NCBI RefSeq assembly: GCF_044763225.1
Contig: NZ_JBIWFX010000002.1
Location: 487,080 to 551,079 of the forward strand
Direction of reading: 5' to 3'
DNA length: 64,000 nt
DNA from: Kitasatospora sp. NPDC096147
GTDB taxonomy: Bacteria; Actinomycetota; Actinomycetes; Streptomycetales; Streptomycetaceae
The first letter of the stretch is position 1. The number at the start of each line of letters is the position of its first letter. This document shows positions 572 through 16,356 of this stretch, one piece after another. The position numbers and the translations under genes were made by a program. The notes beneath the pieces are model-generated. The model was not told the DNA's origin. It searched no databases and was given only the letters and a program-made list of their open reading frames with translations.

Positions 572-1270
572 ATGGCGGCAGTACCGCTCCGGCGGCTACG
601 GGCAGCCGCCGTCAACATCGACGGTGTCATGCTGGACGACACCTTCAGCCCGGTGATCCACCACTTCGTCACCAGCCGGGGCGGCGCCTACACGGCCGAC
701 GTGGAGCGCCGGATCTTCTCGCAGAACCAGCGGCAGGCCGCCGAGGTCGCCGCCGAGGCGGCCGGTCTGGACTGGCCGGTCGAGCAGGTGCTGGAGGTCT
801 ACTTCCAGGAGCGCGCCGAGTACCTGGAGCGCCACCCGCTCCGGGTGCTGGACGGCGCCCCCGCGATGGTGGCCCGGCTGCGAGCCCTCGGGCTGCGCAC
901 CGTCTGCTACGGCGGCCTGGCCCGGCCGCACTTCGACCGCTTCCTCGGCGAGCACGCCGGGCTGTTCGACGATCCGGTCTACGTCTGCACCGACGCCTTC
1001 CGTCCCGGGGTCCGGGAGATCGTCACGGACGTGCTGGGGCTGGAGTTCGACGAGGTGCTCTTCATCGACGACGTGGCCCGGGTGGCCGAGACCGCGCGAG
1101 GGTTGGGCGCGGCGTTCATCGGTCACCCGAGCGGGTTCGAGCACGGCTTCCAGCCGCAGCTGATGAGGGCGGCCGGGGTCCGTCACCTGGCGGCCTCGCC
1201 GGCCGGGGTGGACGAGTGGCTGGTGCGCACGGTGGACGAGGAGTCCGCCAACGGGAAGCTCTGGGGCTGA
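572..1270 (+). CDS. HAD-superfamily hydrolase/phosphatase, candidate autoregulator-phosphate phosphatase
   Basis: The ORF (starts possible at 542 or 572) has HAD-like motifs, LFIDDV and GAAFIG. It ends 60 bp from the stop of the convergent AfsA-like gene. Confidence 0.6.
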   Translation: MAAVPLRRLRAAAVNIDGVMLDDTFSPVIHHFVTSRGGAYTADVERRIFSQNQRQAAEVAAEAAGLDWPVEQVLEVYFQERAEYLERHPLRVLDGAPAMVARLRALGLRTVCYGGLARPHFDRFLGEHAGLFDDPVYVCTDAFRPGVREIVTDVLGLEFDEVLFIDDVARVAETARGLGAAFIGHPSGFEHGFQPQLMRAAGVRHLAASPAGVDEWLVRTVDEESANGKLWG

Positions 1271-1330
1271 CTGCCGCAGGCGGACCGGGCAGACCGGGCG
1301 GACCCGACGGGCAGAGGTGCCGACGGTCGG

Positions 1331-2401
1331 TCAGGCCGGGCTGCAGACCCACGGGTGGCTGAGCTCGGCGCTCGCCCGGCTCTGGCCGTAGGCGTCGCCG
1401 CTGCTCCGGGTGCCGTTGAGCAGGCAGGTCGGCACGGTCAGGGTGCTGGTGAAGACCGTCCGTCCCTCCTGCTCGGCGCGGACCGCGACGGTGCGCCGGT
1501 TCGGGTGCTCGGCCGGCCGCTCGGTCGCCTCGATGAAACAGGGCGAGTCGAACTCCACGTAGTGGGTGAACTCGGAGTCGGCCGAGGAGACCAGGGTGGC
1601 CTCCGGCACCAGGATCCGGGCGGCCTGCCGGGCCGCCTCCAGCATCACCATGCCGGGCACGTGGTCGCCGGGGTGGTCGAAGAGCACCGGGTGCCGGGTG
1701 TCCAGCCGCAGCTGCCAGCGGTTCGTCTCGCCGATGCCGGAGAGCACCACGTCCTGCGGGGTCAGCCGCCCGACCAGCGCGGGCTCCACCGGCGGGGCCG
1801 GCTGGAGGTGCGCGGCGGGCGGGGTGATCCGGTTGTCCCGCACCCGGCGGTAGACCTCGGGGCTCATGAAGGTGGCGCTCACGTTGGCCACCGCCGCGAT
1901 CTGACCGTCCCTCAGGATCGTCATCTGGTACCGCAGGCCGGCCACCCGGCGGCCGTGCTGCCTGGTCACCGTGGTGCTGACCAGGACCTCCAGCTCAGCC
2001 GGGGTGTCCCGGACGGTGAGCTGGTGCAGGACGGCGGTGAACTCCAGGTCGTGCAGCAGAAATCGGCTCGTGAGAGGTACGGCGAACTCGGCGTGGGCGA
2101 GTAGAGTACCGACCTGCCGGATGGTTTCTGCTATGAGAGTGGAGTCGTGGTGAAGTCCATCGGGCGAGCTGAAGAAGCTGTGACCACGCGGCCACTGGGC
2201 GGAGACCGAGAAGAACCGGTCGTCGATCCGGCGCCAACGGGTCAGCAGCACCTCGGCCACGGCAGCGCGGTGCACCAGCTCCTTGGGCACCGTGGTGGTG
2301 AAAGACGCAGGTGGGGCCAGTAGGGAGTGCAGGGAAGTGGTGCTTGTCGGATGGTGCACCGCCTCGGCTCCGAGTGCGGTGGTCGAAAGCAGGTCGGACA
2401 T
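1331..2401 (-). CDS. afsA: AfsA/ScbA-family autoregulator (gamma-butyrolactone/butenolide/furan) synthase, two hotdog-fold repeats
   Basis: The translation aligns by eye along its whole length with ScbA/AfsA. Shared segments are ELVHR..V.EVLLT near the N-terminus and HP.LFDHPGDHVPGMVMLEAARQAA...EFDSPC in the second repeat. The start is chosen at MSDLL, which leaves a short N-terminal extension relative to ScbA. Confidence 0.8.
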   Translation of the reverse strand: MSDLLSTTALGAEAVHHPTSTTSLHSLLAPPASFTTTVPKELVHRAAVAEVLLTRWRRIDDRFFSVSAQWPRGHSFFSSPDGLHHDSTLIAETIRQVGTLLAHAEFAVPLTSRFLLHDLEFTAVLHQLTVRDTPAELEVLVSTTVTRQHGRRVAGLRYQMTILRDGQIAAVANVSATFMSPEVYRRVRDNRITPPAAHLQPAPPVEPALVGRLTPQDVVLSGIGETNRWQLRLDTRHPVLFDHPGDHVPGMVMLEAARQAARILVPEATLVSSADSEFTHYVEFDSPCFIEATERPAEHPNRRTVAVRAEQEGRTVFTSTLTVPTCLLNGTRSSGDAYGQSRASAELSHPWVCSPA

Positions 2402-2455
2402 GGTCCCCCCCAAAGGATCACTGTCAACGGACGGCGACGACGCGCAACAGGCACT

Positions 2456-2481
2456 TACAATACAGGGCAGCCGGTTTATTT
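2456..2481. promoter_or_regulatory. Candidate ARE (autoregulatory element) in the divergent afsA / receptor intergenic region
   Basis: TACAATACAGGGCAGCCGGTTTATTT matches the ARE consensus TNANAWACNNACYNNNCGGTTTKTTT at 17 of 20 specified positions, including CGGTTT.TTT. It lies between divergent afsA-like and TetR receptor genes. Confidence 0.35.
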
Positions 2482-2562
2482 GTAGACCCTGATACCTCGA
2501 ACTCCGGCAGTAGTTGACCTGCCTGTCATGAACAGATCAATGCAAGACGGGAGAGACCAGCC

Positions 2563-3198
2563 ATGGCACAGCAGGAACGTGCAGTTCAGACCAGGAGAAG
2601 CATCCTGCTCGGCGCGGCCCAGGTGTTCGACGAGTACGGATATGACGCCGCCTCGATCAAGGAGATCCTGGCGCGGGCGCAGGTGACGAAGGGGGCGCTC
2701 TACTTCCACTTTCCTTCGAAGGAGGAGTTGGCCCGCGGAGTCCTGCAGGAACAGACGGTCTATCTGGACATTCCGGATAACGTCTCCAAGCTCCAGGAAT
2801 TGATCGACCTGACGATGGCGGTGGCGCACATGCTGCCGGTCGACCCATTGTTGCGGGCCGGCCTGCGCCTGGCCATGGAGCGCGGCTCGGTGGACTTCTC
2901 CGAGAGCAATCCGCTGCTCGCCTGGGCGCGGATCTGCGGTGAGCTGCTGGAGGAGGCCAAGCTGCGCGGCGAGGTGCTGACCCAGGTGGAGGGCAAGGAG
3001 ACGGCCGAGATGCTGGTCGCCAGCTTCGCCGGGGTGCAGACCTTCTCGCAGGCGACCACCGGGCTGAGCGACATGGAGGAGCGGGTCTCGGTGCTCTGGC
3101 GCCACCTGCTGCCCACCATCGCGCTGCCGGCCACCCTGGTGCGGCTGGATGCCCAGCCGGGGCGCGGGGCGAAGGTGGTGCAGCAGATCGTCGGCTGA
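2563..3198 (+). CDS. TetR-family gamma-butyrolactone receptor (ScbR/ArpA-like)
   Basis: The N-terminus MAQQERAVQTRRSILLGAAQVFDEYGYDAASIKEILARAQVTKGALYFHFPSKEELA is near-collinear with ScbR/ArpA HTH regions. The gene is divergent from afsA-like. Confidence 0.8.
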   Translation: MAQQERAVQTRRSILLGAAQVFDEYGYDAASIKEILARAQVTKGALYFHFPSKEELARGVLQEQTVYLDIPDNVSKLQELIDLTMAVAHMLPVDPLLRAGLRLAMERGSVDFSESNPLLAWARICGELLEEAKLRGEVLTQVEGKETAEMLVASFAGVQTFSQATTGLSDMEERVSVLWRHLLPTIALPATLVRLDAQPGRGAKVVQQIVG

Positions 3199-3282
3199 GT
3201 GGTGCACGGGGGAGCGGTGCCCGGACGGCGGAGGGGCGGACACTCCGTCAGGCCGGGCCCCCGGCCGGGGCGTTCACGGCGG

Positions 3283-3365
3283 GTCACTCCACGGGGGAGA
3301 AGGACGCCGGGCCGTCCACGGGGGAGCAGGGCGCCGGGCCGTCCACGGGGGAGCGGGGCGTCACC
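3283..3365. repeat. 27-bp tandem repeat (~3 copies) encoding an SPVDGPA(P/S) tail
   Basis: tccacgggggag[aag/cag/cgg]g[a/g]cgccgggccg repeats three times. It is in frame at the 3' end of the pseudo-receptor gene. Confidence 0.7.
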
Positions 3366-3967
3366 CGCAGACCGGCCAGCTGATCGGCCGGGACCAGTAA
3401 GGGGAGGACGGCCTCCCAGAGCCGGGTGATCACCTTCGGGTCCAGCCAGTTCCGGTCCCGCCGGGCGATGATCTCCACCCCGGCGGTGGCGGCGGCGAGC
3501 AGACCGGCCGCCTCCTCGACGCCGGCTCCGGAGTGCAGCCGTCCGGCGGTCGAGCAGCGGGTCAGCTCGCGGTTGACCAGCCGCACCCAGGCCGGGTGCG
3601 GATTCGGCCGCTGGTCCTCGGGCAGGCCGTTGTCGTCGGTGAGCCGCAGGCCGGCCCGGAAGACGATGTCGGTGGCGAGCAGGTGCGCCAGGCCGTGGCT
3701 GAGGTCGATCAAGTACTGGAGCGGGCATCCGGCGGAGTGCCGGGCCCGGCGGACGACCTCACGCAGTCCGCGCCTCGACTCCGCGATGACCGCTTCGGCC
3801 AGGAGTTCCTTGGAGCCGAAATGGAAGTAGAGCGCGCCCTTGGAGATCCCGGTCGGCCGGGTCACGTCGTTCAGACCGGTCGTCGCGAAGCCGACTTGAT
3901 CGAATGAGGCGGCAGCGGCCCTGATCAGAAGCTTGCGGGTGCGTTCGGCGCGTTCCTGACGGGCCAT
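3284..3967 (-). CDS. Second TetR-family receptor homologue (pseudo-receptor, ScbR2/MmyR-like) with repetitive Pro-rich C-terminal tail
   Basis: MARQERAERTRKLLIRAAAASFDQVGFATTGLNDVTRPTGISKGALYFHFGSKELLAEAV is a receptor-type HTH. It has a distinct ligand-domain sequence and the C-terminus SPVDGPAPCSPVDGPASFSPVE. Confidence 0.75.
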   Translation of the reverse strand: MARQERAERTRKLLIRAAAASFDQVGFATTGLNDVTRPTGISKGALYFHFGSKELLAEAVIAESRRGLREVVRRARHSAGCPLQYLIDLSHGLAHLLATDIVFRAGLRLTDDNGLPEDQRPNPHPAWVRLVNRELTRCSTAGRLHSGAGVEEAAGLLAAATAGVEIIARRDRNWLDPKVITRLWEAVLPLLVPADQLAGLRVTPRSPVDGPAPCSPVDGPASFSPVE

Positions 3968-4047
3968 CGAGGATCCTCCCTGGCGGCCCACGGCGGCCTC
4001 GCGCGAAGACCCCGGTTTGCTGAGTGTTCATCTCCGGGGGTAGCGTA

Positions 4048-4070
4048 ACAAACCGCTTACCCGGTATTTC
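4048..4070. promoter_or_regulatory. Candidate receptor operator upstream of the pseudo-receptor gene
   Basis: ACAAACCGCTTACCCGGTATTTC contains inverted half sites AAACCG and CGGTAT. This resembles the ArpA half-site CGGT(A/T)(T/C). It sits in the promoter region of the minus-strand TetR gene. Confidence 0.3.
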
Positions 4071-4250
4071 TAAGGTCTGTCATGTTCCCCCTGGTGACCT
4101 TGCGCTGCCTGCGCGTAAGATGACGGAGTCTCTAAAACCAACCAGTCGGTTCTGTACTGTTATCCATCACCAGCATCTCGCTGCCTGGCTGCGGCGCCGT
4201 CCGGCGCCCGGCTGCCACCAGGTGGCGACACGGAGGAGGGGACGGGGGCT

Positions 4251-5465
4251 GTGGAAGGTGTTAGCGAGAAGAACGTTCCTGAGCACATCTGGGGCGACGT
4301 GGCGGACGACTTCGTCACCGAGTTCTCCCGCCGGATGCTGGCCTCGCTGAAGCGGCGCGACCAGCGGGCGCGGGGAGAGTGGTACATCTCGGGGCTGCTC
4401 TCGGTCCAGGGCCGCAAGTCCATGCGGGCCTTAGCCGCAGTGGCCGGATACGGGGCCGCCGAGCAGAGTCTGCACCACTTCATCAGTGACTCGTCCTGGC
4501 GTTGGGCTCCGGTCCGCCAGGCCCTGGCCAAGCACCTGGACCGGGTCCTGCTCCCGCAGGCCTGGGTGCTCAACTCGATGGCCATCCCGAAGGCCGGCGA
4601 GCACTCGGTCGGTGTGGAGGAGTCCTTCCGGACCGAGCTCGGCCGGGTGGTCAACAGCCAGCAGGCGTACGGCGTCTGGCTGGCCAGCGAGGACATGAGC
4701 GCTCCGGTGAACTGGGGCCTGGTGCTGCCGGCCGACTGGCTGGCCAACGAGGAACGGCGCAAGCGCGCGAAGATCCCGGACGAGGTCTCGGCCACCACCC
4801 CGGAGCTCTGCGCGGTCAACAGCGTGGTCGAACTGGCCGGTCCGGACTGGGGCTTGCGCCGCCGTCCGGCGGTGCTGGACGCCCGGGAGCTCGACGCGGC
4901 CACCCTGGTCGAGGAGTTCTGCCGGCGCGGGGTGCCGTTCGTGATGCGGGTGAGCGGCTCGACCAGGCTGGTCGGCTTCGACGGCAGCCTGCCCGGTCGG
5001 GGTGAACGGGTCTTCCAGGCCCAGCAGTTGATCGAGTGGGCGAAGCGGTTCTCCCGGCCGGTCGGCTGGGTGGACCCGGACTACTCGATCACCCGCTCGA
5101 TCCTGGTCAGCGGTACCCGGGTGACCATGCCGACGGTCCGCAGGCCCGGCATGCTGGTCCCGCCGGAGCGCGCGCTGGCCCTGGTCGGCGGATGGTCCGG
5201 CTCGAAGGGCAAGCCCGCCGAGCTCTGGCTGTCCAACCTGGTGGACGTGCCGCCGGTCGCCCTGCTCCGGCTGGGGCGGCTCACCCGGCGGGTGGCCAAG
5301 GACTTCGCCGAGGTCTCCGGCCGGGTCGGGATGCGGGACTTCGAGGGCCGCAGCTACGCCGGCTGGCACCGGCACGCGACCCTCTGCTCGGTGGCGCACG
5401 CGATCTCGGTGCTCTCCACCGCGCGGCGCCAGGGCTTCGACAAGTCGCAGGAGCTGTCGGCCTGA
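4251..5465 (+). CDS. IS701-like DDE transposase (DDE_5 type), possibly a solo or domesticated copy
   Basis: 404-aa ORF ending ...EGRSYAGWHRHATLCSVAHAISVL. The GWHRH.TL motif is typical of IS701-family transposases. No terminal inverted repeats were identified by eye. Confidence 0.55.
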   Translation: MEGVSEKNVPEHIWGDVADDFVTEFSRRMLASLKRRDQRARGEWYISGLLSVQGRKSMRALAAVAGYGAAEQSLHHFISDSSWRWAPVRQALAKHLDRVLLPQAWVLNSMAIPKAGEHSVGVEESFRTELGRVVNSQQAYGVWLASEDMSAPVNWGLVLPADWLANEERRKRAKIPDEVSATTPELCAVNSVVELAGPDWGLRRRPAVLDARELDAATLVEEFCRRGVPFVMRVSGSTRLVGFDGSLPGRGERVFQAQQLIEWAKRFSRPVGWVDPDYSITRSILVSGTRVTMPTVRRPGMLVPPERALALVGGWSGSKGKPAELWLSNLVDVPPVALLRLGRLTRRVAKDFAEVSGRVGMRDFEGRSYAGWHRHATLCSVAHAISVLSTARRQGFDKSQELSA

Positions 5466-5565
5466 TGGCGATCCGGGGGCGGGAGACGAGGACGGCCGGG
5501 GCGGCCGGTGCACGGGTGTGCGCCGGCCGGTCCCCGGCCGCCGTCCCGCTCGGCGGTGGCGAGGG

Positions 5566-5745
5566 TGCCGACGGCCGTGAGGGTGCCGGCCGTCGGAAGA
5601 ACGCGGGACGCCGTGAGGGCACCGGCTTCCGTGAGGGCACCGGCTTCCGTGAGGGCTCGGGAGGCCGTGAGAGCACCGGCTATCGGGAGAGTTCGGGCCG
5701 CCGTGAGGGCTCGGGCGGTCGGGAGGGCTCGGGTGGTCAGGCGAG
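5566..5745. repeat. Degenerate 18-bp tandem repeat array (~10 units, cgtgagggcaccggcttc-like)
   Basis: Units such as ccgtgagggcaccggcttc (two of them identical) then ccgtgagggctcgggaggc, ccgtgagagcaccggctat, cgggagagttcgggccgc, cgtgagggctcgggcggt and cgggagggctcgggtggt. It sits just 3' of the transposase gene. In one frame it would read REGTGF/REGSGG. Confidence 0.7.
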
Positions 5746-5812
5746 CCAGGGTCGTCATGAGGGCCTCGGCCGCCAAGGCGGCTCCGAGGGCGGCGGCGAG
5801 GCCGCGGCGCGG

Positions 5813-6688
5813 TCAGTCCGCGCGGCGGAGCAGCTCCTCCTGGGCGGCCCGGCGCAGCGCCGCGACCGGCACGTCGCTCCGGCCGGTGAGCAACTCCAGC
5901 TGCCGGGCGGCCTGGTGGACCGCGAAGGAGACCCCGTCCACCACGGTGGAGCCCGCGAAGCCGGCCGCCTTGACCAGCCGGGTCGGCCAGGCCGAGGTGA
6001 CCACGTCGAAGACGGCGGCCCGGGAGTGCATCACTGCGGCGGCGAAGGCGTCGGCTCCGCCGGCCGGCAGGGTGGAGATCACCAGTCCGGCGCCGGGCAG
6101 CAGCTGCTCCAGGCTGCCGAAGGTGTGCACGTCCACGGCGATGCCGAGCCGGCCGGCTGCGGCGGTGGCCTCGGCCGCCCGGCTGCGTTCGCGGACCACC
6201 ACCGAGGGCTCCAGCACGCCGAGTTCGCGCAGTGCGGCCAGCGCCGAGCAGGCCGTGGCGCCGCCGCCGAGCACGACCGCCGAGCCGGGTGAAGTGACCC
6301 CGGCCTCGCGCATCGCGGTGAGCATCCCGTACACGTCGGTGCTCTCGCCGTGGCTGCGTCCGCGGCGGAACACCACGGTGTTCACCCCGCCGACGTCCAG
6401 CCCCAGGTCGGAGACCTCGTCGATCAGCGGCAGTACGGCCCGCTTGAGCGGCATGCCGAGCGCGAGACCGGCCCAGCCGCCCTCCAACCCGGCGAGCACG
6501 TGCGGGAGTTCGGTCTCGTCGCACTCGATGTTCTGGTACGACCAGTCCAGGCCCATGGCGGTCAGGCCGGCCCGGTGCAGGGCGGCGGTGATGGACTGGC
6601 CGACGGGGGAGCCGAGCACCGCGGTGCGGCGGGCGGCCTGGCGGGGCGGCGTGCTGCTCTCCAGCACGGGGGGCTGTGCGATGCGCAT
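5813..6688 (-). CDS. aroE: Shikimate dehydrogenase family (AroE-like), extra copy
   Basis: MRIAQPP..AVLGSPVGQSITAALHRAGL...MPLKRAV...GGVNTV...VVLGGGATACSALAAL matches the AroE N-terminal substrate and NADP-binding topology. The start is chosen at the ATG at 6688. Confidence 0.7.
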   Translation of the reverse strand: MRIAQPPVLESSTPPRQAARRTAVLGSPVGQSITAALHRAGLTAMGLDWSYQNIECDETELPHVLAGLEGGWAGLALGMPLKRAVLPLIDEVSDLGLDVGGVNTVVFRRGRSHGESTDVYGMLTAMREAGVTSPGSAVVLGGGATACSALAALRELGVLEPSVVVRERSRAAEATAAAGRLGIAVDVHTFGSLEQLLPGAGLVISTLPAGGADAFAAAVMHSRAAVFDVVTSAWPTRLVKAAGFAGSTVVDGVSFAVHQAARQLELLTGRSDVPVAALRRAAQEELLRRAD

Positions 6689-6993
6689 CGTCGTACTCCT
6701 TTCGCCAGGGGGGAACGGCCTACCGGACGGGCAGGTTCCACTCACTGTCCCGGTGTCAGCCCAGCTTAGGTAGCACCCCGCCGGAACGGGCGGGCCGGTT
6801 GACACAGAGTCACGTTCGAGGACGACCTGACGGGATTCCCGGCACACTCCGTCACGCACCGTGGAATGACATGCCCACGATGCTATTTGCCTGGTAATCG
6901 GATAGCTGACATGGTCCCGAACCTACGTTTGATAGGTCGTGTAAAGGATCCGCAGGCTTCCCGTCGGGTTGATCGAACGATCGCCCGAGCGTA

Positions 6994-7010
6994 GTCGACG
7001 TGTCGTCGAC
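6994..7010. promoter_or_regulatory. Perfect inverted repeat GTCGACG-TGT-CGTCGAC ~20 bp upstream of the multicopper oxidase start
   Basis: 7-bp arms with a 3-bp spacer, in the lower-GC divergent intergenic region between aroE-like and the MCO gene. Confidence 0.3.
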
Positions 7011-7030
7011 GGTACGGGAACGGGGAGCCG

Positions 7031-8509
7031 ATGCTGTCACGTAGGAACGTCCTGAAGACCGGTGTGCTCACCACGGGGGTGGTCGGAGCGGCCGGACTGG
7101 CCAGCCCGGTGCTCGGCCGGCGGGACGCGGAGGCGGCCGAGCCGGCCGGCGGCGCGGGGCCCGAGGCGATCGGCGCACCTGCGGTGATCCCGCAGTTCGC
7201 GGTCCCGCTCACGGTGCCGCCGGTGCTCTCGCCGCTGCTCTCCAGTGGCACCACCGACTACTACCTGATGACCATGAAGAAGCTGTCGAAGGAGGTGGTG
7301 CCGGGCAAGCGGACCGAACTCCTCGGCTACAACGGGCTGGTGCCCGGCCCCACCATCCGGGCCAGGAAGGGCCGCCGGGTGGTGATCCGGCAGACCAACC
7401 TGCTGGACACGCCGGTCTCGGTGCACCTGCACGGCGCCGAGGTGCCGGTGGACAGCGACGGCGCGCCGATGGACACCATCGCCCCCGGTGGCAGCAAGGT
7501 CTATACGTACCCCAACAACCAGCCGGCCGCGCCGCTGTGGATCCACGACCACGCCCACCACCACGAGTCGGAGCACGTCTACCGGGGGCTCTCCTCGGTC
7601 TACCTGATCGGCGACGACAACGAGCAGTCGCTGGGCCTGCCGTCCGGCCCGTACGACGTGCCGCTGGTGATCCGGGACGGCCGGTACGACGAGAACGGCC
7701 AACTCGTCTACATCATGGACGACTTCAGGAACCGCACCACCATCACGGTGAACGGCTCCCCGTGGCCGTACCTCCGGGTCGCGGCCCGCAAGTACCGCTT
7801 CCGGGTGCTCAATTCGGCGAACACCAGATTCCTCTCGCTCCGGCTCTCGAACGGCGGCACCTTCACCCAGATCGGGGTGGACGGGGGGCTGCTGGAAGCC
7901 CCGCACGAGACCGCCGTGCTGCCGGTGTCACCCGGTGAGCGGGCCGACGTGGTGATCGACTTCTCCCGCTACCCGGTCGGCACCCAGCTGGTGCTGGAGA
8001 ACACCCTCGGGCCCGGGCCGGTCGAGCAGGTCGGGAAGGTGATGCGCTTCGACGTGGTCCGCACCGCGTCCGACGACTCCACCGTGCCGGCCCGGCTGGC
8101 CACCCTGCCCACCCCGCTGCCGGCCACCGTCAGCCGGAGCTTCGTGCTGCGGATGGACGAGGACGGCCGGGCCGAGCCGCAGGCGTACATCAACGGACGG
8201 AGCTTCGACCAGGCCCGGATCGACGTCCGGATCCCCTGGGGCTCGACCGAGGTGTGGACGGTGTCCAACGCCAACACCACCGCCCCGCACAACTTCCACC
8301 TGCACCTGGTGCAGTTCCGCGTCCTGGAGCGGAACGGGCAGCCGCCGGCCCCGGGCGAGGCCGGACTCAAGGACACCGTCCGGGTGCTGGCGGGGGAGAC
8401 GGTCAAGCTGCTGATCAGCTTCCGGAGCTACCGGGGCGTGTACGCCTACCACTGCCACATGTTCGACCACGGAGCGATGGGAATGATGGGGCAGATGGAG
8501 ATCTACTGA
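7031..8509 (+). CDS. Tat-secreted multicopper oxidase (laccase-like)
   Basis: Twin-arginine signal MLSRRNVLKTG. Copper-binding motifs are HLHG, HDHAHHH and HCHMFDHGAMGMMG. Confidence 0.85.
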   Translation: MLSRRNVLKTGVLTTGVVGAAGLASPVLGRRDAEAAEPAGGAGPEAIGAPAVIPQFAVPLTVPPVLSPLLSSGTTDYYLMTMKKLSKEVVPGKRTELLGYNGLVPGPTIRARKGRRVVIRQTNLLDTPVSVHLHGAEVPVDSDGAPMDTIAPGGSKVYTYPNNQPAAPLWIHDHAHHHESEHVYRGLSSVYLIGDDNEQSLGLPSGPYDVPLVIRDGRYDENGQLVYIMDDFRNRTTITVNGSPWPYLRVAARKYRFRVLNSANTRFLSLRLSNGGTFTQIGVDGGLLEAPHETAVLPVSPGERADVVIDFSRYPVGTQLVLENTLGPGPVEQVGKVMRFDVVRTASDDSTVPARLATLPTPLPATVSRSFVLRMDEDGRAEPQAYINGRSFDQARIDVRIPWGSTEVWTVSNANTTAPHNFHLHLVQFRVLERNGQPPAPGEAGLKDTVRVLAGETVKLLISFRSYRGVYAYHCHMFDHGAMGMMGQMEIY

Positions 8510-8694
8510 GACTTCCGGGAGAGCCGGTCGGTACTTCCGGATCCACGGGCGATCTGACGGACCGTGCCACCGGCAGTGGCAGATCGGGACGAGGTGATGG
8601 AGTCGCCCGGCCACGGTTGCCGGTCCGCACGCCCGCGCGGGAGAGTCGTGCGCGACGCGCTCGCACGACGAACTCGGGGAATGGGGGAGCGGCC

Positions 8695-9312
8695 GTGACC
8701 AACGTCGCCATCATCTACTACTCGTCCACCGGCCACGTGCACAAGCTGGCCGAGGAGGCCGCCTCGGCCGCCGCCAAGGCGGGCGCCGAGGTGCGACTGC
8801 GCAAGGTCGCCGAACTGGCCCCCGCGCACGTGGTGGCGTCCAAGCCGGAGTGGGCCGAGCACCACGAGGCCACCCGGGAGGTGCCCGAGGCCACGCTCGC
8901 CGACCTGGAGTGGGCCGACGCGCTGCTGTTCGGCACCCCGACCCGGTTCGGCCTGCCCGCCGCCCAGCTCAAGCAGTTCATCGACACCACCGGCGGCCTG
9001 TGGTTCCAGGGCAAGTTGGTGAACAAGGTGGTTTCCTCCTTCACCTCCACCTCCACCCTGCACGGTGGTCAGGAGTCGACCCTGCTGGCGCTGAACAACA
9101 CCTTCTACCACTGGGGCGCGATCATCGTGCCGCCCGGCTACGCGCACGAGGTGCAGTTCGCGCCGACCAACGGCAACCCGTACGGCACCAGCCACGTCTC
9201 GCACCACCACGTCGGCACCCCGGACCAGGACAACCTGGCCGCGATCGGCTACCAGGCCCGCCGCACGGTGGAGATCGCCACCGCCCTGAAGGCCGGCCTC
9301 GCCGCCGCCTGA
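8695..9312 (+). CDS. wrbA: NAD(P)H:quinone oxidoreductase WrbA (flavodoxin-like)
   Basis: GTG start. VTNVAIIYYSSTGHVHKLAEEAA... is the canonical WrbA N-terminus. Confidence 0.8.
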   Translation: MTNVAIIYYSSTGHVHKLAEEAASAAAKAGAEVRLRKVAELAPAHVVASKPEWAEHHEATREVPEATLADLEWADALLFGTPTRFGLPAAQLKQFIDTTGGLWFQGKLVNKVVSSFTSTSTLHGGQESTLLALNNTFYHWGAIIVPPGYAHEVQFAPTNGNPYGTSHVSHHHVGTPDQDNLAAIGYQARRTVEIATALKAGLAAA

Positions 9313-9329
9313 CGACGCGTCACCCCGAC

Positions 9330-9374
9330 GGCAGCGCAGTGGATGCGGGAATTCCCGTAATCCGCTGCGCTGCC
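9330..9374 (+). terminator. Compound stem-loop downstream of wrbA
   Basis: ggcagcgcag...ctgcgctgcc forms a 10-bp stem. It encloses an inner perfect palindrome cgggaattcccg. Confidence 0.3.
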
Positions 9375-9486
9375 CGTATTACGTGCAACTGACGAAGTCA
9401 GCCGACCCTCATTGCCGCACTCCGCGCGGCTGCCCCAGAGTTCTCGGAAGGAGAACGCTTCGAATTACCCGGCGAAGGGGCAGCGG

Positions 9487-9972
9487 ATGTCGACGGTGAC
9501 GATCTCCTGGACGGTACCGGTCAATTCCGGGACGGAGTCCGGGCCTGCACGGATGGACGCGCACGGGCTGTGGCGGCAGTTGGTCGCCAAGGCCGAGAAT
9601 CCCGTGCCCTACGTCCCCGCGATCACCGAGTGCACCGTACTCGACCGGTTTCCCGGTGGATTCCACCGGAGCATCGTCCGGGACGGCCGCACCGTGTTCC
9701 AGCGCATCGAAATGGAGCCCGGGGACGAGATCGTCTACCGGCAGCCCGGCGACAGCGAGGTGCGGGCGATCAGCAACCGGATCGACCGCACCGAGGACGG
9801 CTCGCTGGCGCTGACCATCTCGGTCGACCTGGCCCCCGAGGGGATCGAGCGCGCGGTCCGCGAGAGCAGGTTCCTGGAGGCCGCGGACGCCTACTTCACC
9901 GACGCGCTGCGCGCCGTGATCGACGAGATCCGGGCCGCCGTCTCCCCCGTCGAGCTGACCAACGCCGCCTGA
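9487..9972 (+). CDS. Hypothetical protein, possible SRPBCC (polyketide cyclase/START-like) fold
   Basis: 161-aa ORF with an ATG start at 9487. Size and hydrophobic pattern are compatible with an SRPBCC ligand-binding protein. This is a weak call. Confidence 0.4.
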   Translation: MSTVTISWTVPVNSGTESGPARMDAHGLWRQLVAKAENPVPYVPAITECTVLDRFPGGFHRSIVRDGRTVFQRIEMEPGDEIVYRQPGDSEVRAISNRIDRTEDGSLALTISVDLAPEGIERAVRESRFLEAADAYFTDALRAVIDEIRAAVSPVELTNAA

Positions 9973-10007
9973 CCGTCCGGCAGCTGCACATCCACAGGAG
10001 GAACCTG

Positions 10008-10769
10008 ATGACCGCACGATTCGACGGCAAGGTCGCCCTGGTCACCGGTGGCGGCTCGGGCATCGGCCGCGCCACCGCGCTGGCCTTCGCCCGGGAGGGG
10101 GCCACCGTGATGGTGGCCGGCCGCGAGCCGAGCGAGCTGCGGGAGACCGTGGCCCTGATCGAGGAGGCGGGCGGCAAGGCCGACTGCATCCGCGCCGACG
10201 TCACGCACGGCATGGACGTCATCAAGCTGGTGCAGTCCACCGTGGACCGCCACGGCGGGCTGCACATCGCCTTCAACAACGCCGGAGTGATGGGCCGTCC
10301 GAGCCCGCTGGCCGAGGTCTGCGAGGCGGTCTGGGGCGACATCCTGTCCACCAACCTGACCGGTGCCTGGCTGCTGATGAAGCACGAGATCGCCCACATG
10401 CGCGAGCACGGCGGCGGCGTGATCGTGAACACCGCGGCCAACATCGGCATCCACGGCCGGATCCCCGGTTTCGGCGCCTTCGCGGCCTCCAAGGCCGCGC
10501 TCTCCACGCTGACCCGGACGGCCGCCCGGGAGTACATCCGGGAGGGCATCCGGATCAACGCGATCAGCCCCGGCACGGTCGACACCGACCAGGGCCGCCG
10601 CTACAACGAGACCGAGGAGCAGCGGGACGAGCGGGTCCGCAGCGGCGTGCCGATCGGCCGGGTCGCCCGGACCGAGGAGATCGCCGACACCGTGCTCTGG
10701 CTCTCCGGCGACGAGTCCAGCTTCGTGGTCGGTCACGACCTGGTGCTGGACGGCGGGGCCACGGCCTGA
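10008..10769 (+). CDS. SDR-family oxidoreductase
   Basis: An AGGAGG RBS sits 6 bp upstream. GKVALVTGGGSGIGRA is the Rossmann motif. Catalytic S...Y...K spacing is present. Confidence 0.85.
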   Translation: MTARFDGKVALVTGGGSGIGRATALAFAREGATVMVAGREPSELRETVALIEEAGGKADCIRADVTHGMDVIKLVQSTVDRHGGLHIAFNNAGVMGRPSPLAEVCEAVWGDILSTNLTGAWLLMKHEIAHMREHGGGVIVNTAANIGIHGRIPGFGAFAASKAALSTLTRTAAREYIREGIRINAISPGTVDTDQGRRYNETEEQRDERVRSGVPIGRVARTEEIADTVLWLSGDESSFVVGHDLVLDGGATA

Positions 10770-11902
10770 TGACGGGCATCCTGCGGCGGCTCTCCGAGGA
10801 GGGCGTCTCGCTCTGGTTGGACGGCCTCGGCCGGGACCGGCTGGCCGACGGACGGCTGGCCGAGCTGGCCGGGGACCGGTCCGTGGTCGGGGTGGTGGCC
10901 ACCCCGTCGGCCGGCCCGGCCTACCACCGGCAGCTGGCGGAGCTGGCCGCCCGGGGTGCCTCGGCGGCGGTCGCGCTGCGCGAGCTGACGGTCCGTGACC
11001 TGCACGGGGTCTGCACCCTGCTGGATCCGATCCACCGCTGCACGGCCGGCTCGGACGGGCTGGTCTCGGCCGCGGTCGACCCGGCCTTCGCCCGGGGCAC
11101 GCTGGCCGCGCTGGCCGAGGCCCGGGCGCTGTACCGGGCGGTGGACCGCCCCAACCTGCTGGTCGAGCTGCCGGCCACGGTCGAGGCGCTGCCCGCCGTC
11201 ACCCGCTGCCTGGCCGAGGGGATCGGCGTGCACGTCTCGCTGGTGCTCTCGCCCGAGCGGTACGGCCAGGTGCTCGAGGCCTTCCTGACCGGCCTGGAGC
11301 TGGCCGCCGAGCAGGGCCGGGACGTCTCCCGGATCAACTCGGTGGCCGCGGTGCCGGTCGGCCTGCTGGACGCGGTGGTGGACCACGCGCTGGACGCGAT
11401 CGGCACCGAGGAGGCCCGGGCCTTCCGGGGCCAGGCCGGCCCGGCGCTGGCCAGGCTCGCCTACCGGCGCTACGAGGCGGAGTTCGCCTCGCCGCGCTGG
11501 ACGGCGCTGGCCGCGCTCGGCGCCCGGCCGCAGCGGCTGCTCTGGAGCCACACCGGCACCGACGGCGGCCCCGGCCGCCGGGACACCCGGTACGTGGACG
11601 AGCTGGTCGCCCCGAACACCGTCACCGCCGTCACCGAGCGGACCCTGGCCGCCGTCGCCGAGCACGGCCGCCCGGCCCGGGCCCAGCGGTTCGCCGCCGG
11701 GTACGCCGACGCGGAGCGGGTGCTGGGCTACCTGGAGTGGTTCGGCCTGGAGCTGGCCGAACTGCTCGACGGGCTGGAGCGGGAGTCGCTGGCCGGCCTG
11801 CGCCGGACCCGCACCGAGCTGCTGGAGTCCGTGCTGGCCCGGCTCACCGAGGTCCGGGAGTCGGAGCTCCAGGACGCCGGGGCTCCGCCGGCCGGGCACT
11901 AG
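10769..11902 (+). CDS. tal: Transaldolase (actinobacterial long form), extra copy
   Basis: The ATG overlaps the SDR stop (ATGA coupling). LSEEGVSLWLDGLGRD and later blocks are collinear with transaldolase. Confidence 0.75.
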   Translation: MTGILRRLSEEGVSLWLDGLGRDRLADGRLAELAGDRSVVGVVATPSAGPAYHRQLAELAARGASAAVALRELTVRDLHGVCTLLDPIHRCTAGSDGLVSAAVDPAFARGTLAALAEARALYRAVDRPNLLVELPATVEALPAVTRCLAEGIGVHVSLVLSPERYGQVLEAFLTGLELAAEQGRDVSRINSVAAVPVGLLDAVVDHALDAIGTEEARAFRGQAGPALARLAYRRYEAEFASPRWTALAALGARPQRLLWSHTGTDGGPGRRDTRYVDELVAPNTVTAVTERTLAAVAEHGRPARAQRFAAGYADAERVLGYLEWFGLELAELLDGLERESLAGLRRTRTELLESVLARLTEVRESELQDAGAPPAGH

Positions 11903-12086
11903 ACGGCCGGGCACCGGACGGCCGGGCACCGGGCGGCGGACGCGCGCCGCTGACCGGGCCCGCTCCACCGTACCGGCCCCAACCACCCGACGCGCCGGGT
12001 CGGTTGCACCGGTCCCAGCCGTCCCGAACGAACCACCAAGGCCGACAGAGCACCAACTCGACCCCTCCGAAAGGCAGAACAGCCAG

Positions 12087-13319
12087 ATGGCGAAGATCCT
12101 GATAGCCGGTGGTGGTATCGGCGGCCTGGCGACCGCGCTGAGCGTCTCCCGCCGGGGCCACCAGGTGGTGGTGCTGGAGAGCCGGGACACCTTCACCGAG
12201 CTCGGGGCCGGCATCCAGCTCGGCCCGAACGCCTTCCACGCGCTGGACGTGCTCGGCGTCGGCGACGAGGTCCGCTCGCGGGCCGTGCACATCGACGAGC
12301 TGCGCTTCATGGACGGCACCACCTCCGAGCTGGTCGTCACCATGCCGCTGACCGGCGCCTACCGGGAGCGCTTCGGCAACCCGTACGCGGTGGTGCACCG
12401 GATCGACATCTACGCCCCGCTGCTGGACGCGGCCCGCGCCTCGGACGCGATCGAACTGCGCACCGACGCCCAGCTGCTGAGCTACCGTCAGGACGCCGAG
12501 GGCGTCACCGCCGTGCTGGCCTCCGGCGAGGAGGTCCGGGGCGAGGCGCTGATCGGCGCGGACGGCATCAACTCCTACGTCCGCAAGCAGCTGGTCGGCG
12601 ACGGCTTCCCGCAGGTCTCCGGGCACACCATCTACCGCTCGGTGATCCCGATGGAGAAGGTGCCGGAGGAGCTCCGGTGGAACACCGTGACGCTCTGGGC
12701 CGGCCCCAAGTGGCACTTCGTCCACTACCCGATCGGCGGCGGCAAGTACTTCAACCTGGCGGCCACCCGGGACGACGACGCCCGGGAGGCGGTGATCGGC
12801 GCCCCGGCCGAGAAGGACTTCGTGCTCAACGAGTTCCCCGACCTGGGCGAGATCCCGCGCCGGCTGCTGGAGCTCGGCGAGGACTGGAAGGCCTGGGTGC
12901 TCTGCGACCGCGACCCGGTCGAGCAGTGGACCGACGGCCGGGTGGTGCTGATCGGCGACGCCGCGCACCCGATGCTCCAGTACGCCGCCCAGGGCGCCTG
13001 CCAGGCGGTCGAGGACGCGGTGGTGCTGGGCCAGGTGATCGGCACCGAGGCGTGCGAATTCCCGCAGCGCTTCGAGAAGTTCAACGGCGAGCGGCGCCAG
13101 CGCACCGCCGCCACCCAGCTGGTCGCCCGGGAGATGGGCAAGCAGCTCTACCACCCGGTCGGCGAGGCCGCGAAGGCGCGCAACGCGCTGCTCGCCTCGC
13201 TCACCCCGGAGCAGCTGTACGACAAGGTGGAGTGGCTGCACGGCAGCCGGGTCGGCGACGGCACCGTCATCGAGCCGCCGGTGATCGGTCGTCGGGCCGC
13301 CACCGCCGGGGAGCACTGA
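12087..13319 (+). CDS. FAD-dependent aromatic hydroxylase (salicylate / 3-hydroxybenzoate 6-hydroxylase-like)
   Basis: [18 protein letters not shown] is the FAD GxGxxG fold. DG.NS.VR and GDAAH motifs are typical of class A flavoprotein monooxygenases. Confidence 0.85.
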
Positions 13320-13321
13320 CC

Positions 13322-14506: not shown

Positions 14507-14635
14507 GGACCGCCTCCTCGGTGGTGCCGCGCGGCCCGGCCCGGAATCCCCCTCCGGGCCGGGCCCGCACCGGAGTTGACGAAGTATCGGGCCGCGCTTC
14601 ACGGCCCCCTCCCGCCCGGATCCACGATTGTCGGT

Positions 14636-15730: not shown

Positions 15731-16356
15731 GCCGCCTGGTGGTGGTCTCGGCCGGGCTGAGCGACCCGTCCTCGACCCGGCTGCTGGCCGACCGGCTGAC
15801 CGCCGCCACCGCCCGCCGCCGGCCGGTCGAGAGCCGGGTGGTGGAGCTGCGCGAGCTGGCCGTGGACGTGGCCAAGCACCTGGTCAGCGGCTTCCCCTCG
15901 GCGGCGCTGCGGGAGGTGCAGGAGGCGGTGGGCGGGGCCGACGCGCTGATCGCGGTGACGCCGGTCTTCACCGCGTCCTACAGCGGCCTGTTCAAGTCCT
16001 TCTTCGACGTGCTCGACCCGACCGTGCTGGCCGGCAAGCCGGTGCTGCTCGGTGCCACCGGCGGCTCCACCCGGCACTCGCTGGCGCTGGAGCACGCGCT
16101 GCGCCCGATGTTCGTGTACCTGCGCGCCGTGGTGCTGCCGACGGCGGTCTACGCCGCTTCGGCGGACTGGGGCGCGGGGGTGGAGGGCGGCACCGAGGAG
16201 CTGGCCTCCCGGATCGACCGTGCCGGGGCCGAACTGGCCGCCGCCCTCGGTGCGTCCGGCTCCCCTTCGGTGTCCGACGGTCGAAATGCCGGTGCACCGG
16301 CCGAGGCCGAACTCATACCGTTCGCACAGCAGTTGGCCGCACTGGGCCTGGAGTGA
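15724..16356 (+). CDS. NAD(P)H-dependent FMN reductase (partner of the LLM)
   Basis: The GTG start overlaps the LLM stop. VVVSAGLSDPSSTRLL...PVFTASYSGLFKSFFD resembles the SsuE/MsuE family. Confidence 0.75.
   Translation: MVSRLVVVSAGLSDPSSTRLLADRLTAATARRRPVESRVVELRELAVDVAKHLVSGFPSAALREVQEAVGGADALIAVTPVFTASYSGLFKSFFDVLDPTVLAGKPVLLGATGGSTRHSLALEHALRPMFVYLRAVVLPTAVYAASADWGAGVEGGTEELASRIDRAGAELAAALGASGSPSVSDGRNAGAPAEAELIPFAQQLAALGLE

What the first reader, a model, noticed from the sequence alone, without database searches (positions are those of the whole stretch)
572..2401. HAD phosphatase convergent on the AfsA-like gene: MMF-type (MmfP-like) rather than classic A-factor arrangement?
- AfsA products are phosphorylated butenolides that need dephosphorylation.
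- Dedicated HAD phosphatases (MmfP) are encoded only in furan (MMF) type clusters, together with two receptors (MmfR/MmyR).
- Here there is a HAD hydrolase plus two receptor paralogues, but no MmfH-like flavin oxidoreductase or BprA/ScbB-like reductase immediately adjacent.
- The signal class is therefore unresolved and could be a variant.
Basis: inference. Interest (0 to 1): 0.55.

Follow-up and report, generated by a model that had tools for sequence, protein, structure and literature searches.

The report
SRB-type butenolide hormone cassette, reductase lost
The phosphatase-like gene facing the AfsA-type signal synthase belongs to a known Streptomyces butenolide-hormone gene set (the S. rochei SrrX/SrrP type), not the methylenomycin-furan type, and this Kitasatospora copy has lost the reductase that usually comes with it.

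Summary
A HAD-fold gene (572-1270, +) converges on an AfsA-family synthase (1331-2401, -), followed by two ScbR-type receptors.

The MMF reading does not hold.
- The HAD is 62.7% identical to the protein in the SrrP position of an S. rochei-type srr locus.
- It shows no detectable similarity to the MmfP of an SCP1-type plasmid. MmfP belongs to another HAD subfamily (PF12710) with a canonical DxD motif.
- No MmfH (acyl-CoA-dehydrogenase-type) homologue occurs in the 64 kb.

In 86 related loci this HAD family nearly always sits beside an AfsA gene (78), an SDR (64) and ScbR-type receptors. That is the SRB/SAB butenolide cassette.

The window lineage has lost the cassette SDR, while close relatives keep it. 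The remaining genes are under purifying selection, and an operator-like site is conserved.

Family-wide, the catalytic Asp nucleophile is replaced by Asn, so "phosphatase" may be a misnomer.

Verdict: a new, SDR-less variant of a known signalling system, of moderate interest.

The parts
572..1270 (+). SrrP-type HAD-fold protein (232 aa). Motif I reads V-N15-I-D17-G-V, with Asn in place of the catalytic Asp nucleophile (codon 614-616). R144-P-G is at motif III and D166-D167 at motif IV.
   Evidence: It is 62.7% identical to the SrrP-position protein of L090 and 100% identical to a Kitasatospora sp. NPDC096147 protein. The motifs come, and the AF2 model and Foldseek search. dN/dS is 0.29 against L006.
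1331..2401 (-). AfsA-family phosphorylated-butenolide synthase (356 aa, SrrX-like). The last ~34 aa lie beyond the family model.
   Evidence: NF041195 scores 348.6 bits and PF03756 matches twice. It is 46.5% identical to the SrrX-like protein and 34.8% to MmfL. dN/dS is 0.29. The AfsA tree mirrors the HAD tree.
2457..2484 (.). ARE-like operator in the divergent afsA/receptor promoter region (ACAATACAGGGCAGCCGGTTTATTTGTA).
   Evidence: It matches AAACCGN6CGGTTT with 2 mismatches. There are 3 such matches in the window against 0.68 expected, all in cassette intergenic regions. It is an island of near-invariant bases across 5 diverged loci.
2563..3198 (+). ScbR/ArpA-family signal receptor (211 aa, SrrA-like, acidic pI 5.2).
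   Evidence: NF041196 scores 216.6 bits. It is 51% identical to the SrrA-like protein. The pI is. dN/dS is 0.17.
3284..3967 (-). Second ScbR-family regulator (227 aa from the ATG at 3967), SrrB-like with basic pI 9.3: a probable pseudo-receptor/repressor.
   Evidence: NF041196 scores 174 bits. It is 35% identical to the SrrB-like protein over 207 aa. The pI is, and the gene call of the independent assembly. dN/dS is 0.26.
4050..4152 (.). Two further ARE-like half-palindromes (4050-4067 and 4135-4152) between the second receptor gene and the DDE_5 gene.
4251..5465 (+). IS701/DDE_5 transposase-like gene that travels with the cassette. Whether it belongs to the system is uncertain.
   Evidence: NF033540 scores 291.7 bits. 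It sits in the same position next to the second receptor in all 14 loci of the window's clade (72-99% aa identity), and distant homologues lie near 15 other cassettes. dN/dS is 0.025.
10008..10769 (+). The only SDR in the window and a candidate trans-acting ketoreductase. It is not the cassette SDR.
   Evidence: It is 40% identical to the cassette SDR of GP82 and 33% to the SrrG-like protein. It coexists with the cassette SDR in L011 and L017. dN/dS is 0.037.

Best explanation
Window 572-3967 is a butenolide-hormone (autoregulator) cassette of the S. rochei SRB / S. ansochromogenes SAB type, found here in a Kitasatospora strain.

Shown here:
- The four genes are homologues of SrrP (HAD), SrrX (AfsA-family synthase), SrrA (receptor) and SrrB (second, basic regulator).
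- This HAD family is a dedicated, co-evolving partner of AfsA genes.
- A conserved operator-like site lies between the synthase and receptor genes.
- The SDR normally attached to the HAD is absent in this lineage.

Inferred mechanism:
1. The synthase condenses a beta-ketoacyl thioester with dihydroxyacetone phosphate to give a 2-acyl-3-(phosphooxymethyl)butenolide.
2. The SrrP-type HAD processes the phosphate ester on the way to a 2-substituted 3-methyl-4-hydroxybutenolide.
3. The acidic receptor R1 binds the operator and is released by the signal.
4. R2 acts as a signal-insensitive co-repressor.

Because the cassette ketoreductase (SrrG/SabD equivalent) and the SrrO-type P450 are missing, there are two possible products. 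One keeps the 1'-keto group, giving a 2-acyl analogue. The other is reduced by an unlinked SDR.
For: - Orthology: HAD 62.7%, AfsA 46.5%, R1 51% and R2 35% identity to the proteins of L090. Its gene order (thioesterase, AfsA, P450, HAD, ScbR, SDR..., ScbR) equals srrH-srrX-srrO-srrP-srrA-srrG-...-srrB of pSLA2-L as published (PMC7564063).
- The S. cellostaticus orthologue also falls in the family (PMC12301235).
- Cassette survey: 353 species genomes carry the HAD. Of 86 loci examined, 78 have an AfsA gene in the flank and 64 have an SDR within 450 bp of the HAD.
- The HAD and AfsA trees are congruent.
- SDR loss is derived. The nearest relatives with the same flanks (GP82 L008/L011, L013, L014-L019) have HAD-SDR-><-AfsA, whereas WIN/L006/L010, L012 and L024 lack the SDR, and no remnant is left.
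- The genes are maintained: dN/dS is 0.17-0.29.
- The operator is conserved.
- Receptor pI values are 5.2 and 9.3, matching SrrA-like 6.1 and SrrB-like 10.7.
- Literature: SabA, SabP and SabD are required for SAB production, and SrrP/SrrG are proposed for SRB production (PMC6930871, PMC7756379, PMC7564063).
Against: - No chemistry exists for this strain.
- A defining component of the SRB/SAB cassette (the SDR) is absent, and so is the P450.
- SabP itself could not be retrieved, so the link to the SAB system rests on the literature description and on cassette architecture only.
- Identification of L090 as the srr locus rests on gene order and accession block, not on the pSLA2-L record itself.
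- Published work states that AfsA phylogeny does not predict signal class (PMC13500789).
- The HAD has Asn at the nucleophile position, so its assumed phosphatase activity is doubtful.
- The trees are neighbour-joining without support values.
Confidence: 0.72

Rival explanations
1. [quoted passage not shown]
For: An AfsA homologue, a HAD-fold gene and two TetR-family receptors are present, as in mmfR-mmfLHP-mmyR.
Against: - The MmfP of the SCP1-type locus L094 has no detectable similarity to the window HAD (BLASTP none at E<=10; hhalign probability 0.9%). It belongs to PF12710 and has a canonical DVDET motif.
- No MmfH (acyl-CoA-dehydrogenase family) or MmfP homologue is found anywhere in the 64 kb (tblastn).
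- The HAD is convergent on the synthase, not co-directional in an L-H-P operon.
- The synthase is 34.8% identical to MmfL against 46.5% to the SrrX-like protein.
Confidence: 0.03
2. Classical gamma-butyrolactone system: the AfsA product is reduced by an unlinked BprA/ScbC-like enzyme, and the HAD merely speeds dephosphorylation.
For: - The NCBIfam model that matches is named ScbA/BarX gamma-butyrolactone biosynthesis protein.
- The cassette lacks its own SDR, and A-factor likewise keeps a 1'-keto group (established knowledge).
- AfsA phylogeny is not class-predictive (PMC13500789).
Against: - The HAD family is tied to SRB-type cassettes, including SrrP itself.
- Its nucleophile Asp is replaced by Asn, which argues against a simple phosphatase role.
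- No BprA-like reductase lies in the window. By Pfam the only Epimerase/SDR-type hit is the distant SDR at 10008.
Confidence: 0.12
3. Decaying remnant: after loss of the SDR the cassette no longer makes a signal, and the receptors act as orphan regulators.
For: - The SDR is missing in three lineages of the clade.
- The locus sits at an assembly break.
Against: - All four ORFs are intact and have GC3 of 0.90-0.91.
- dN/dS is 0.17-0.29 over dS of 0.26-0.44 between two strains that both lack the SDR.
- The operator footprint is conserved.
- Three independent SDR losses with retention of HAD and AfsA suggest the SDR is dispensable rather than that the system is dying.
Confidence: 0.1

Closest known systems
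SRB system of Streptomyces rochei pSLA2-L (srrX, srrP, srrO, srrG, srrH, srrA, srrB), seen here through the collinear S. griseofuscus pSGRIFU1 locus L090
   Same: AfsA-family synthase, the same HAD family with the NIDGV motif, an acidic receptor and a basic second regulator. Identities are 46.5%, 62.7%, 51% and 35%.
   Different: The window has no SrrG-type SDR, no SrrO P450 and no SrrH thioesterase. The gene order differs: the HAD is convergent on the synthase. The locus is chromosomal, in Kitasatospora, and embedded in a different neighbourhood.
SAB system of Streptomyces ansochromogenes (sabA, sabP, sabD, sabR1, sabR2)
   Same: Synthase plus dedicated phosphatase plus two receptors. sabAPD make 2-alkyl-3-methyl-4-hydroxybutenolides (PMC6930871, PMC7756379).
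   Different: No SabD equivalent is present here.
MMF (AHFCA) cassette mmfR-mmfLHP-mmyR of SCP1, seen here through the S. anthocyanicus plasmid locus L094
   Same: AfsA homologue, a HAD-superfamily protein and two TetR-family repressors.
   Different: MmfP is a different HAD subfamily (PF12710, canonical DxD) with no similarity to the window HAD. The acyl-CoA-dehydrogenase-type MmfH is absent here. The operon layout also differs.
A-factor / SCB gamma-butyrolactone pathways (AfsA + BprA; ScbA + ScbB/ScbC)
   Same: The first step is by an AfsA-family enzyme, and ArpA/ScbR-type receptors bind an ARE-like operator.
   Different: Those pathways have no dedicated HAD partner and rely on BprA/ScbC-type and KR reductases. 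Neither type is linked here.
Canonical C1-cap HAD phosphatases (e.g. BT2127 pyrophosphatase, beta-phosphoglucomutase-like proteins, AlnB)
   Same: The fold matches (Foldseek probability 1.0, TM about 0.7). Asp+2, motif III and motif IV are conserved.
   Different: Sequence identity is 21% or less. The nucleophile Asp is Asn. Motif II Ser/Thr is Cys or Ser. The family is isolated in sequence space, with 109 representatives at E<=1e-3 among 1.84 billion.

Membership tests
SRB/SAB-type (2-alkyl-3-methyl-4-hydroxybutenolide) autoregulator cassette | AfsA-family phosphorylated-butenolide synthase | tested here: met
   NF041195 scores 348.6 bits, and the protein is 46.5% identical to the SrrX-like protein.
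SRB/SAB-type (2-alkyl-3-methyl-4-hydroxybutenolide) autoregulator cassette | Dedicated SrrP/SabP-type phosphatase-like gene next to the synthase | tested here: met
   The HAD is 62.7% identical to the SrrP-position protein and shares the NIDGVLLNDTFSP motif. It is linked to AfsA in 78 of 86 loci. SabP itself was not available.
SRB/SAB-type (2-alkyl-3-methyl-4-hydroxybutenolide) autoregulator cassette | Cassette SDR/ketoreductase (SrrG or SabD) | tested here: not met
   There is no SDR between or beside the HAD and AfsA genes, and no remnant. An SDR is present in 64 of 86 related loci and in the closest syntenic relatives.
SRB/SAB-type (2-alkyl-3-methyl-4-hydroxybutenolide) autoregulator cassette | Receptor plus second (pseudo)receptor of the ScbR/ArpA family with an operator in the synthase promoter | tested here: met
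   NF041196 scores 216.6 and 174 bits. The pI values are 5.2 and 9.3. An ARE-like footprint is conserved. Binding was not tested.
SRB/SAB-type (2-alkyl-3-methyl-4-hydroxybutenolide) autoregulator cassette | Product is a 2,3-disubstituted 4-hydroxybutenolide | not testable with these tools
   This needs expression and LC-MS/NMR.
MMF/AHFCA furan cassette (mmfR-mmfLHP-mmyR) | MmfP-type HAD (PF12710, DxD motif) | tested here: not met
   No BLASTP similarity at E<=10, and an hhalign probability of 0.9%. MmfP matches PF12710 at 124 bits, whereas the window HAD matches only PF00702 at 27 bits.
MMF/AHFCA furan cassette (mmfR-mmfLHP-mmyR) | MmfH acyl-CoA-dehydrogenase-family oxidoreductase co-transcribed with the synthase | tested here: not met
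   tblastn of MmfH against the whole window gives no hit at E<=1e-3.
MMF/AHFCA furan cassette (mmfR-mmfLHP-mmyR) | MmfL-type synthase | tested here: inconclusive
   The synthase is 34.8% identical to MmfL against 46.5% to the SrrX-like protein. AfsA phylogeny is reported not to predict class (PMC13500789).
Classical gamma-butyrolactone pathway (A-factor/SCB) | BprA/ScbC-type butenolide-phosphate reductase and/or ScbB/BarS1 ketoreductase linked to the synthase; no dedicated phosphatase | tested here: not met
   By Pfam no reductase lies beside the synthase, and a dedicated HAD is present. No BprA or ScbB reference sequences were available for a direct search.
Canonical HAD phosphatase (aspartyl-phosphate mechanism) | Asp nucleophile in motif I (DxD) | tested here: not met
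   Asn15 aligns with the nucleophile Asp of canonical HADs. It is Asn in 120 of the 120 top homologues and in the SrrP-like and S. cellostaticus orthologues.
Canonical HAD phosphatase (aspartyl-phosphate mechanism) | HAD Rossmannoid core with C1 cap, Asp+2, and motifs III and IV | tested here: met
   AF2 pLDDT is 96.2. Foldseek hits BT2127 and beta-PGM-like proteins at probability 1.0. D17, R144 and D166-D167 are invariant.

The most novel reading that the evidence does not exclude
Two linked proposals remain open.

1. SrrP-type HAD proteins may not be phosphatases in the classical sense. With Asn in place of the Asp nucleophile, they would use the HAD phosphate/Mg site and Asp17 to eliminate phosphate by C-O cleavage from the 3-(phosphooxymethyl)butenolide. 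Re-addition of water at C4 would then give the 3-methyl-4-hydroxy pattern that defines SRB/SAB hormones. The oxygen of the CH2-O-P group is indeed lost in these compounds. It is retained in the MMF furans, whose cassette uses a canonical DxD HAD (MmfP).

2. The SDR-less Kitasatospora cassette in this window would then make 2-acyl (1'-oxo) 3-methyl-4-hydroxybutenolides. That would be an 'A-factor-like' keto subclass of butenolide hormones, not yet described as signals. The same moiety occurs in gladiostatin.
Probability: 0.25. Interest if true: 0.7.

Novelty: new variant of a known kind. Interest (0 to 1): 0.42.

Why it matters
For this locus, the result replaces a wrong class assignment (furan) with a testable one: an SRB/SAB-type butenolide, possibly the 1'-keto form. 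That guides which standards and reporter receptors to use when trying to switch on the neighbouring aromatic-amine/oxidase gene cluster in Kitasatospora.

More generally, the survey gives a practical genomic marker for SRB-type systems. The SrrP-type HAD is present in 353 species genomes, whereas the field currently says that AfsA phylogeny cannot predict signal class.

The survey also flags that the 'phosphatase' of this pathway lacks the catalytic Asp. The step from phosphorylated butenolide to 3-methyl-4-hydroxybutenolide is explicitly described as unresolved (PMC7756379). The Asn substitution gives a concrete, experimentally checkable hypothesis for it.

Tried and rejected
- Reference records by accession. 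SCP1 (NC_003903, AL589148) and pSLA2-L (NC_004808, AB088224) are not in the plasmid collection. They were replaced by collinear loci on S. griseofuscus pSGRIFU1 and an S. anthocyanicus plasmid carrying the exact MmfR accession.
- Literature. The SAB paper (JBC 2018) is not held, so SabP/SabA/SabD sequences and layout were never obtained.
- Structure searches. PDB sequence searches with the HAD and with AfsA found nothing. The afdb50 fold library was unavailable.
- Looking for MmfP inside the family. Two protein searches started from Asp-type relatives (P0122, alignment A2) to find MmfP within the SrrP family. MmfP is not there. The Asp-type Streptomyces subclade instead sits in AfsA-P450-HAD-SDR cassettes. 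The idea that Asp versus Asn cleanly separates furan from butenolide cassettes within this family was therefore dropped.
- A canonical DFDGV HAD found beside some family members (L042) was tested as a possible MmfP proxy. It has no plasmid hits.
- The luciferase-like monooxygenase at 14576-15730 was considered as an MmfH candidate and rejected. It belongs to the CE1758/CE1759 pair, whereas MmfH is acyl-CoA-dehydrogenase-like.
- SDR remnants between the HAD and AfsA genes: none.
- A terminator or special structure in the 60-bp convergent gap: none.
- Simple inverted-repeat search of the intergenic regions: uninformative.
- A full AfsA/ScbA/BarX reference phylogeny could not be built because those chromosomal references were not retrievable.
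Full report
**What is there.** The window is high-GC actinomycete DNA. Its HAD protein is 100% identical to a protein of Kitasatospora sp. NPDC096147. ORF listing, GC3 gene calling and family scans give this gene order:

| Coordinates | Strand | Gene |
|---|---|---|
| 83-427 | + | small ydhR-like gene |
| 572-1270 | + | HAD-fold gene (Pfam Hydrolase 27.1 bits, barely above cut-off) |
| 1331-2401 | - | AfsA-family gene (NF041195, 348.6 bits) |
| 2563-3198 | + | ScbR-family regulator (216.6 bits) |
| 3284-3967 | - | second ScbR-family regulator (174 bits) |
| 4251-5465 | + | IS701/DDE_5 transposase-like gene |

Beyond these lie shikimate dehydrogenase, a multicopper oxidase, a WrbA-type flavodoxin, an AtaL-like protein, an SDR (10008-10769) and a transaldolase. 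An independent assembly of the same strain ends 27 bp left of window position 1, so the left flank is unknown in this strain.

**The premise about phosphatases is wrong.** The literature held here shows three things. S. ansochromogenes needs SabA (AfsA-like), SabP (phosphatase) and SabD (dehydrogenase/ketoreductase) to make the SAB butenolides (PMC6930871, PMC7756379). S. rochei pSLA2-L carries srrG (dehydrogenase), srrA (receptor), srrP (phosphatase), srrO (P450), srrX (AfsA) and srrH around its SRB synthase (PMC7564063, PMC12301235). The MMF cassette is mmfR-mmfLHP-mmyR (PMC6335953, PMC13307308). Dedicated phosphatase-like genes are thus not restricted to furan clusters.

**Direct comparison with the two reference systems.** Neither SCP1 nor pSLA2-L could be fetched by accession, but collinear loci could.

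- S. griseofuscus pSGRIFU1 (L090) has thioesterase, AfsA, P450, a 'hypothetical' HAD, ScbR, SDR..., ScbR. This is exactly orf86 to orf79 of pSLA2-L, with an old contiguous accession block.
- An S. anthocyanicus plasmid (L094) carries the exact MmfR accession WP_011039544.1. It is followed by an AfsA homologue, an acyl-CoA-dehydrogenase-family protein, a HAD hydrolase and a TetR, that is, mmfR-mmfL-mmfH-mmfP-mmyR.

| Window protein | Identity to srr-type locus (L090) | Identity to mmf-type locus (L094) |
|---|---|---|
| HAD | 62.7% (SrrP-position protein, 220 aa) | no BLASTP similarity to MmfP at E<=10 |
| AfsA | 46.5% (SrrX-like) | 34.8% (MmfL) |
| R1 | 51% (SrrA-like) | 34% (MmfR) |
| R2 | 35% over 207 aa (SrrB-like) | 37% over 114 aa (MmyR) |

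Profile comparison of the HAD family with MmfP gives a probability of 0.9%. MmfP is a PF12710 HAD with a canonical FDVDETL motif, and MmfH is acyl-CoA-dehydrogenase-like. Neither MmfH nor MmfP has a homologue anywhere in the 64 kb. The MMF reading is therefore rejected by test, not by recollection.

**The HAD is a dedicated AfsA partner.**
- A scan of one genome per species found 353 genomes with this HAD family.
- In 86 loci analysed (80 from that scan plus plasmid and strain loci), 78 have an AfsA homologue in the flank. 64 have an SDR within 450 bp of the HAD, and most have one or two ScbR-type genes.
- Two SDR types occur. An SrrG-like type is divergent upstream (73% identical to the SrrG-like protein). 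A second type lies immediately downstream of the HAD.
- Neighbour-joining trees of the HAD and of the linked AfsA proteins are largely congruent, so the cassette evolves as a unit.
- An AfsA without this HAD (L004) nests among the HAD-linked ones. This agrees with published statements that AfsA phylogeny does not predict signal class (PMC13500789).
- In the plasmid collection, 187 records carry AfsA homologues but only 21 carry this HAD.

**The reductase was lost here.**
- Close relatives share the whole neighbourhood: ydhR-like, HAD, AfsA, two receptors, DDE_5, shikimate dehydrogenase, oxidase, WrbA, AtaL and SDR.
- In Kitasatospora sp. GP82 and most other members of the clade, a 257-aa SDR sits between the HAD and the convergent AfsA gene.
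- In the window strain, in Kitasatospora sp. NPDC004289 and in K. albolonga, the two genes abut and no SDR remnant is detectable.
- On the HAD tree the SDR-less state appears in three separate lineages: this one, L012 and L024.
- Between the window and L006, both SDR-less, dN/dS is 0.29 (HAD), 0.29 (AfsA), 0.17 (R1) and 0.26 (R2), at dS of 0.26-0.44. The genes are therefore maintained.
- The only SDR in the window (10008-10769) is 40% identical to the cassette type. It coexists with the cassette SDR in GP82 and S. ipomoeae, so it is not simply a relocated copy.

**Regulatory anatomy.**
- R1 is acidic (pI 5.2) and R2 basic (pI 9.3-9.6). This parallels the SrrA-like (6.1) and SrrB-like (10.7) proteins.
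- The pattern AAACCGN6CGGTTT with up to 2 mismatches occurs three times in the window against 0.68 expected. All three fall in the two intergenic regions that flank the receptor genes.
- The site between afsA and R1 is an island of near-invariant bases across five diverged loci.
- Binding was not tested.

**An unexpected feature of the HAD family.**
- Motif I reads V-N-I-D-G-V. Asn15 aligns with the nucleophile Asp of canonical DxDG[TV] HADs.
- It is Asn in all 120 best homologues, in the SrrP-position protein and in the S. cellostaticus orthologue.
- Asp+2 (D17), R144-P-G and D166-D167 are invariant.
- The AF2 model is confident (pLDDT 96.2). It matches C1-cap HAD phosphatases at 21% identity or less. 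The best-matching PDB chains include engineered Asp-to-Asn active-site variants (D11N, D13N) of the same enzyme.
- The family is small and isolated: 109 representatives at E<=1e-3 among 1.84 billion. Full-length members score 118 bits or more, and other HADs 46 bits or less.
- Low-GC members and a few actinomycete ones carry Asp, and some carry His.
- A Streptomyces Asp-type subclade also sits in AfsA-P450-HAD-SDR cassettes. Asp and Asn therefore seem interchangeable within the same cassette type.
- SRB/SAB butenolides have a 3-methyl group, so the oxygen of the CH2-O-P group is lost. MMF furans keep a hydroxymethyl group and use a canonical DxD HAD. One coherent hypothesis follows, but it is inference only: SrrP-type proteins promote phosphate elimination rather than hydrolysis through an aspartyl-phosphate intermediate.
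- The conversion of the phosphorylated butenolide to the 3-methyl-4-hydroxybutenolide is described as unresolved (PMC7756379).

**Verdict.** The locus is an SRB/SAB-type butenolide autoregulator cassette in Kitasatospora. It is homologous gene-for-gene to SrrX, SrrP, SrrA and SrrB, and it lacks the cassette ketoreductase and the P450. It is not MMF-type and not a classical butyrolactone arrangement. The signal is predicted to be a 2-substituted 3-methyl-4-hydroxybutenolide, possibly the 1'-keto form. This prediction is inferred, and chemistry is required to settle it. As a genome feature it is a new variant of a known kind, and interest is moderate. It is raised somewhat by the family-wide Asn substitution and by the conserved transposase-like gene that accompanies the cassette.

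Noticed in passing
window 614-616 (codon of Asn15 of the HAD); the family as a whole: The catalytic Asp nucleophile of HAD motif I is Asn in this protein, in the SrrP-position protein and in all 120 top homologues. The other catalytic motifs are conserved. More distant family members carry Asp or His at this position.
   Followed up: partly
window 4251-5465 (+): An IS701/DDE_5 'transposase' gene sits in the same position next to the second receptor in all 14 loci of the clade, across Kitasatospora, Streptacidiphilus and Streptomyces (72-99% aa identity). dN/dS is 0.025 against L006. Distant homologues (32-40%) lie near 15 other cassettes. It looks like a domesticated gene rather than a mobile insertion, and an ARE-like site (4135-4152) lies upstream.
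   Followed up: partly
window 5813-13319; L006 and L008 upstream regions (about 2800-9900): The cassette is embedded in a conserved neighbourhood. Upstream in relatives lie class II DAHP synthase, an SDR, isochorismatase and a chorismate-binding/GATase (PhzE-like) protein. Downstream here lie shikimate dehydrogenase, a multicopper oxidase with a sub-threshold match to aminophenol oxidase PhsA (211.7 bits, cut-off 950), WrbA, an AtaL-like protein, an SDR, a transaldolase and a 3-hydroxybenzoate-6-monooxygenase-like enzyme. This is a plausible aminophenol/phenoxazinone-type target cluster.
   Followed up: no
window 1 (left edge); L005: An independent (Logan) assembly of the same strain breaks 27 bp left of the window start. 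In relatives that position is the 3' end of the PhzE-like gene. This suggests a repeat or paralogue that stops assembly.
   Followed up: partly
L041, L042, L045, L053, L055, L057, L068, L072, L073, L083, L087 (about 10000-14300 in each): A distinct sub-group of loci has the Asn-type HAD followed by a second, canonical DFDGV HAD, an MFS transporter and a distant AfsA homologue (31-35% identity), with no SDR. Two different HADs occur in one cassette.
   Followed up: partly
L092 8001-8738; L093 4593-5633; P0122, P0230-P0238, P0240: A small Streptomyces subclade of the family has reverted to (or kept) Asp at the nucleophile position. It still sits in AfsA-P450-HAD-SDR-TetR cassettes. One member (L091) has no AfsA nearby.
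   Followed up: partly
window 10008-10769 (+): This SDR is 99.2% identical in protein to that of a strain whose neighbouring genes are 82-95% identical (dN/dS 0.037). The constraint is unusually strong for its surroundings.
   Followed up: no
window 1331-1439 (C-terminal ~34 aa of AfsA): The AfsA ORF extends beyond the end of the family model and beyond the homology with the SDR-containing relative GP82. The tail is shared with the other SDR-less strains and may date from the deletion that removed the SDR.
   Followed up: partly
L004 6902-7888 (S. coelicoflavus plasmid): An AfsA gene with acyl-CoA carboxylase and SARP neighbours like L001 and L002, but without the HAD, SDR and adjacent receptor, nests inside the HAD-linked AfsA clade. 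The accessory genes can be lost or gained without the synthase changing clade.
   Followed up: no
window 14576-16356 (+): A CE1758-family luciferase-like monooxygenase with its CE1759 FMN reductase partner, followed by a GST-like gene. These are unrelated to MmfH.
   Followed up: yes
window 51704-55948 (-); 36186-38314 (-): A 1414-aa AfsR-like SARP (Trans_reg_C, BTAD, AAA, TPR) and two adjacent sigma-70-family genes lie further along the window. No link to the cassette was examined.
   Followed up: no
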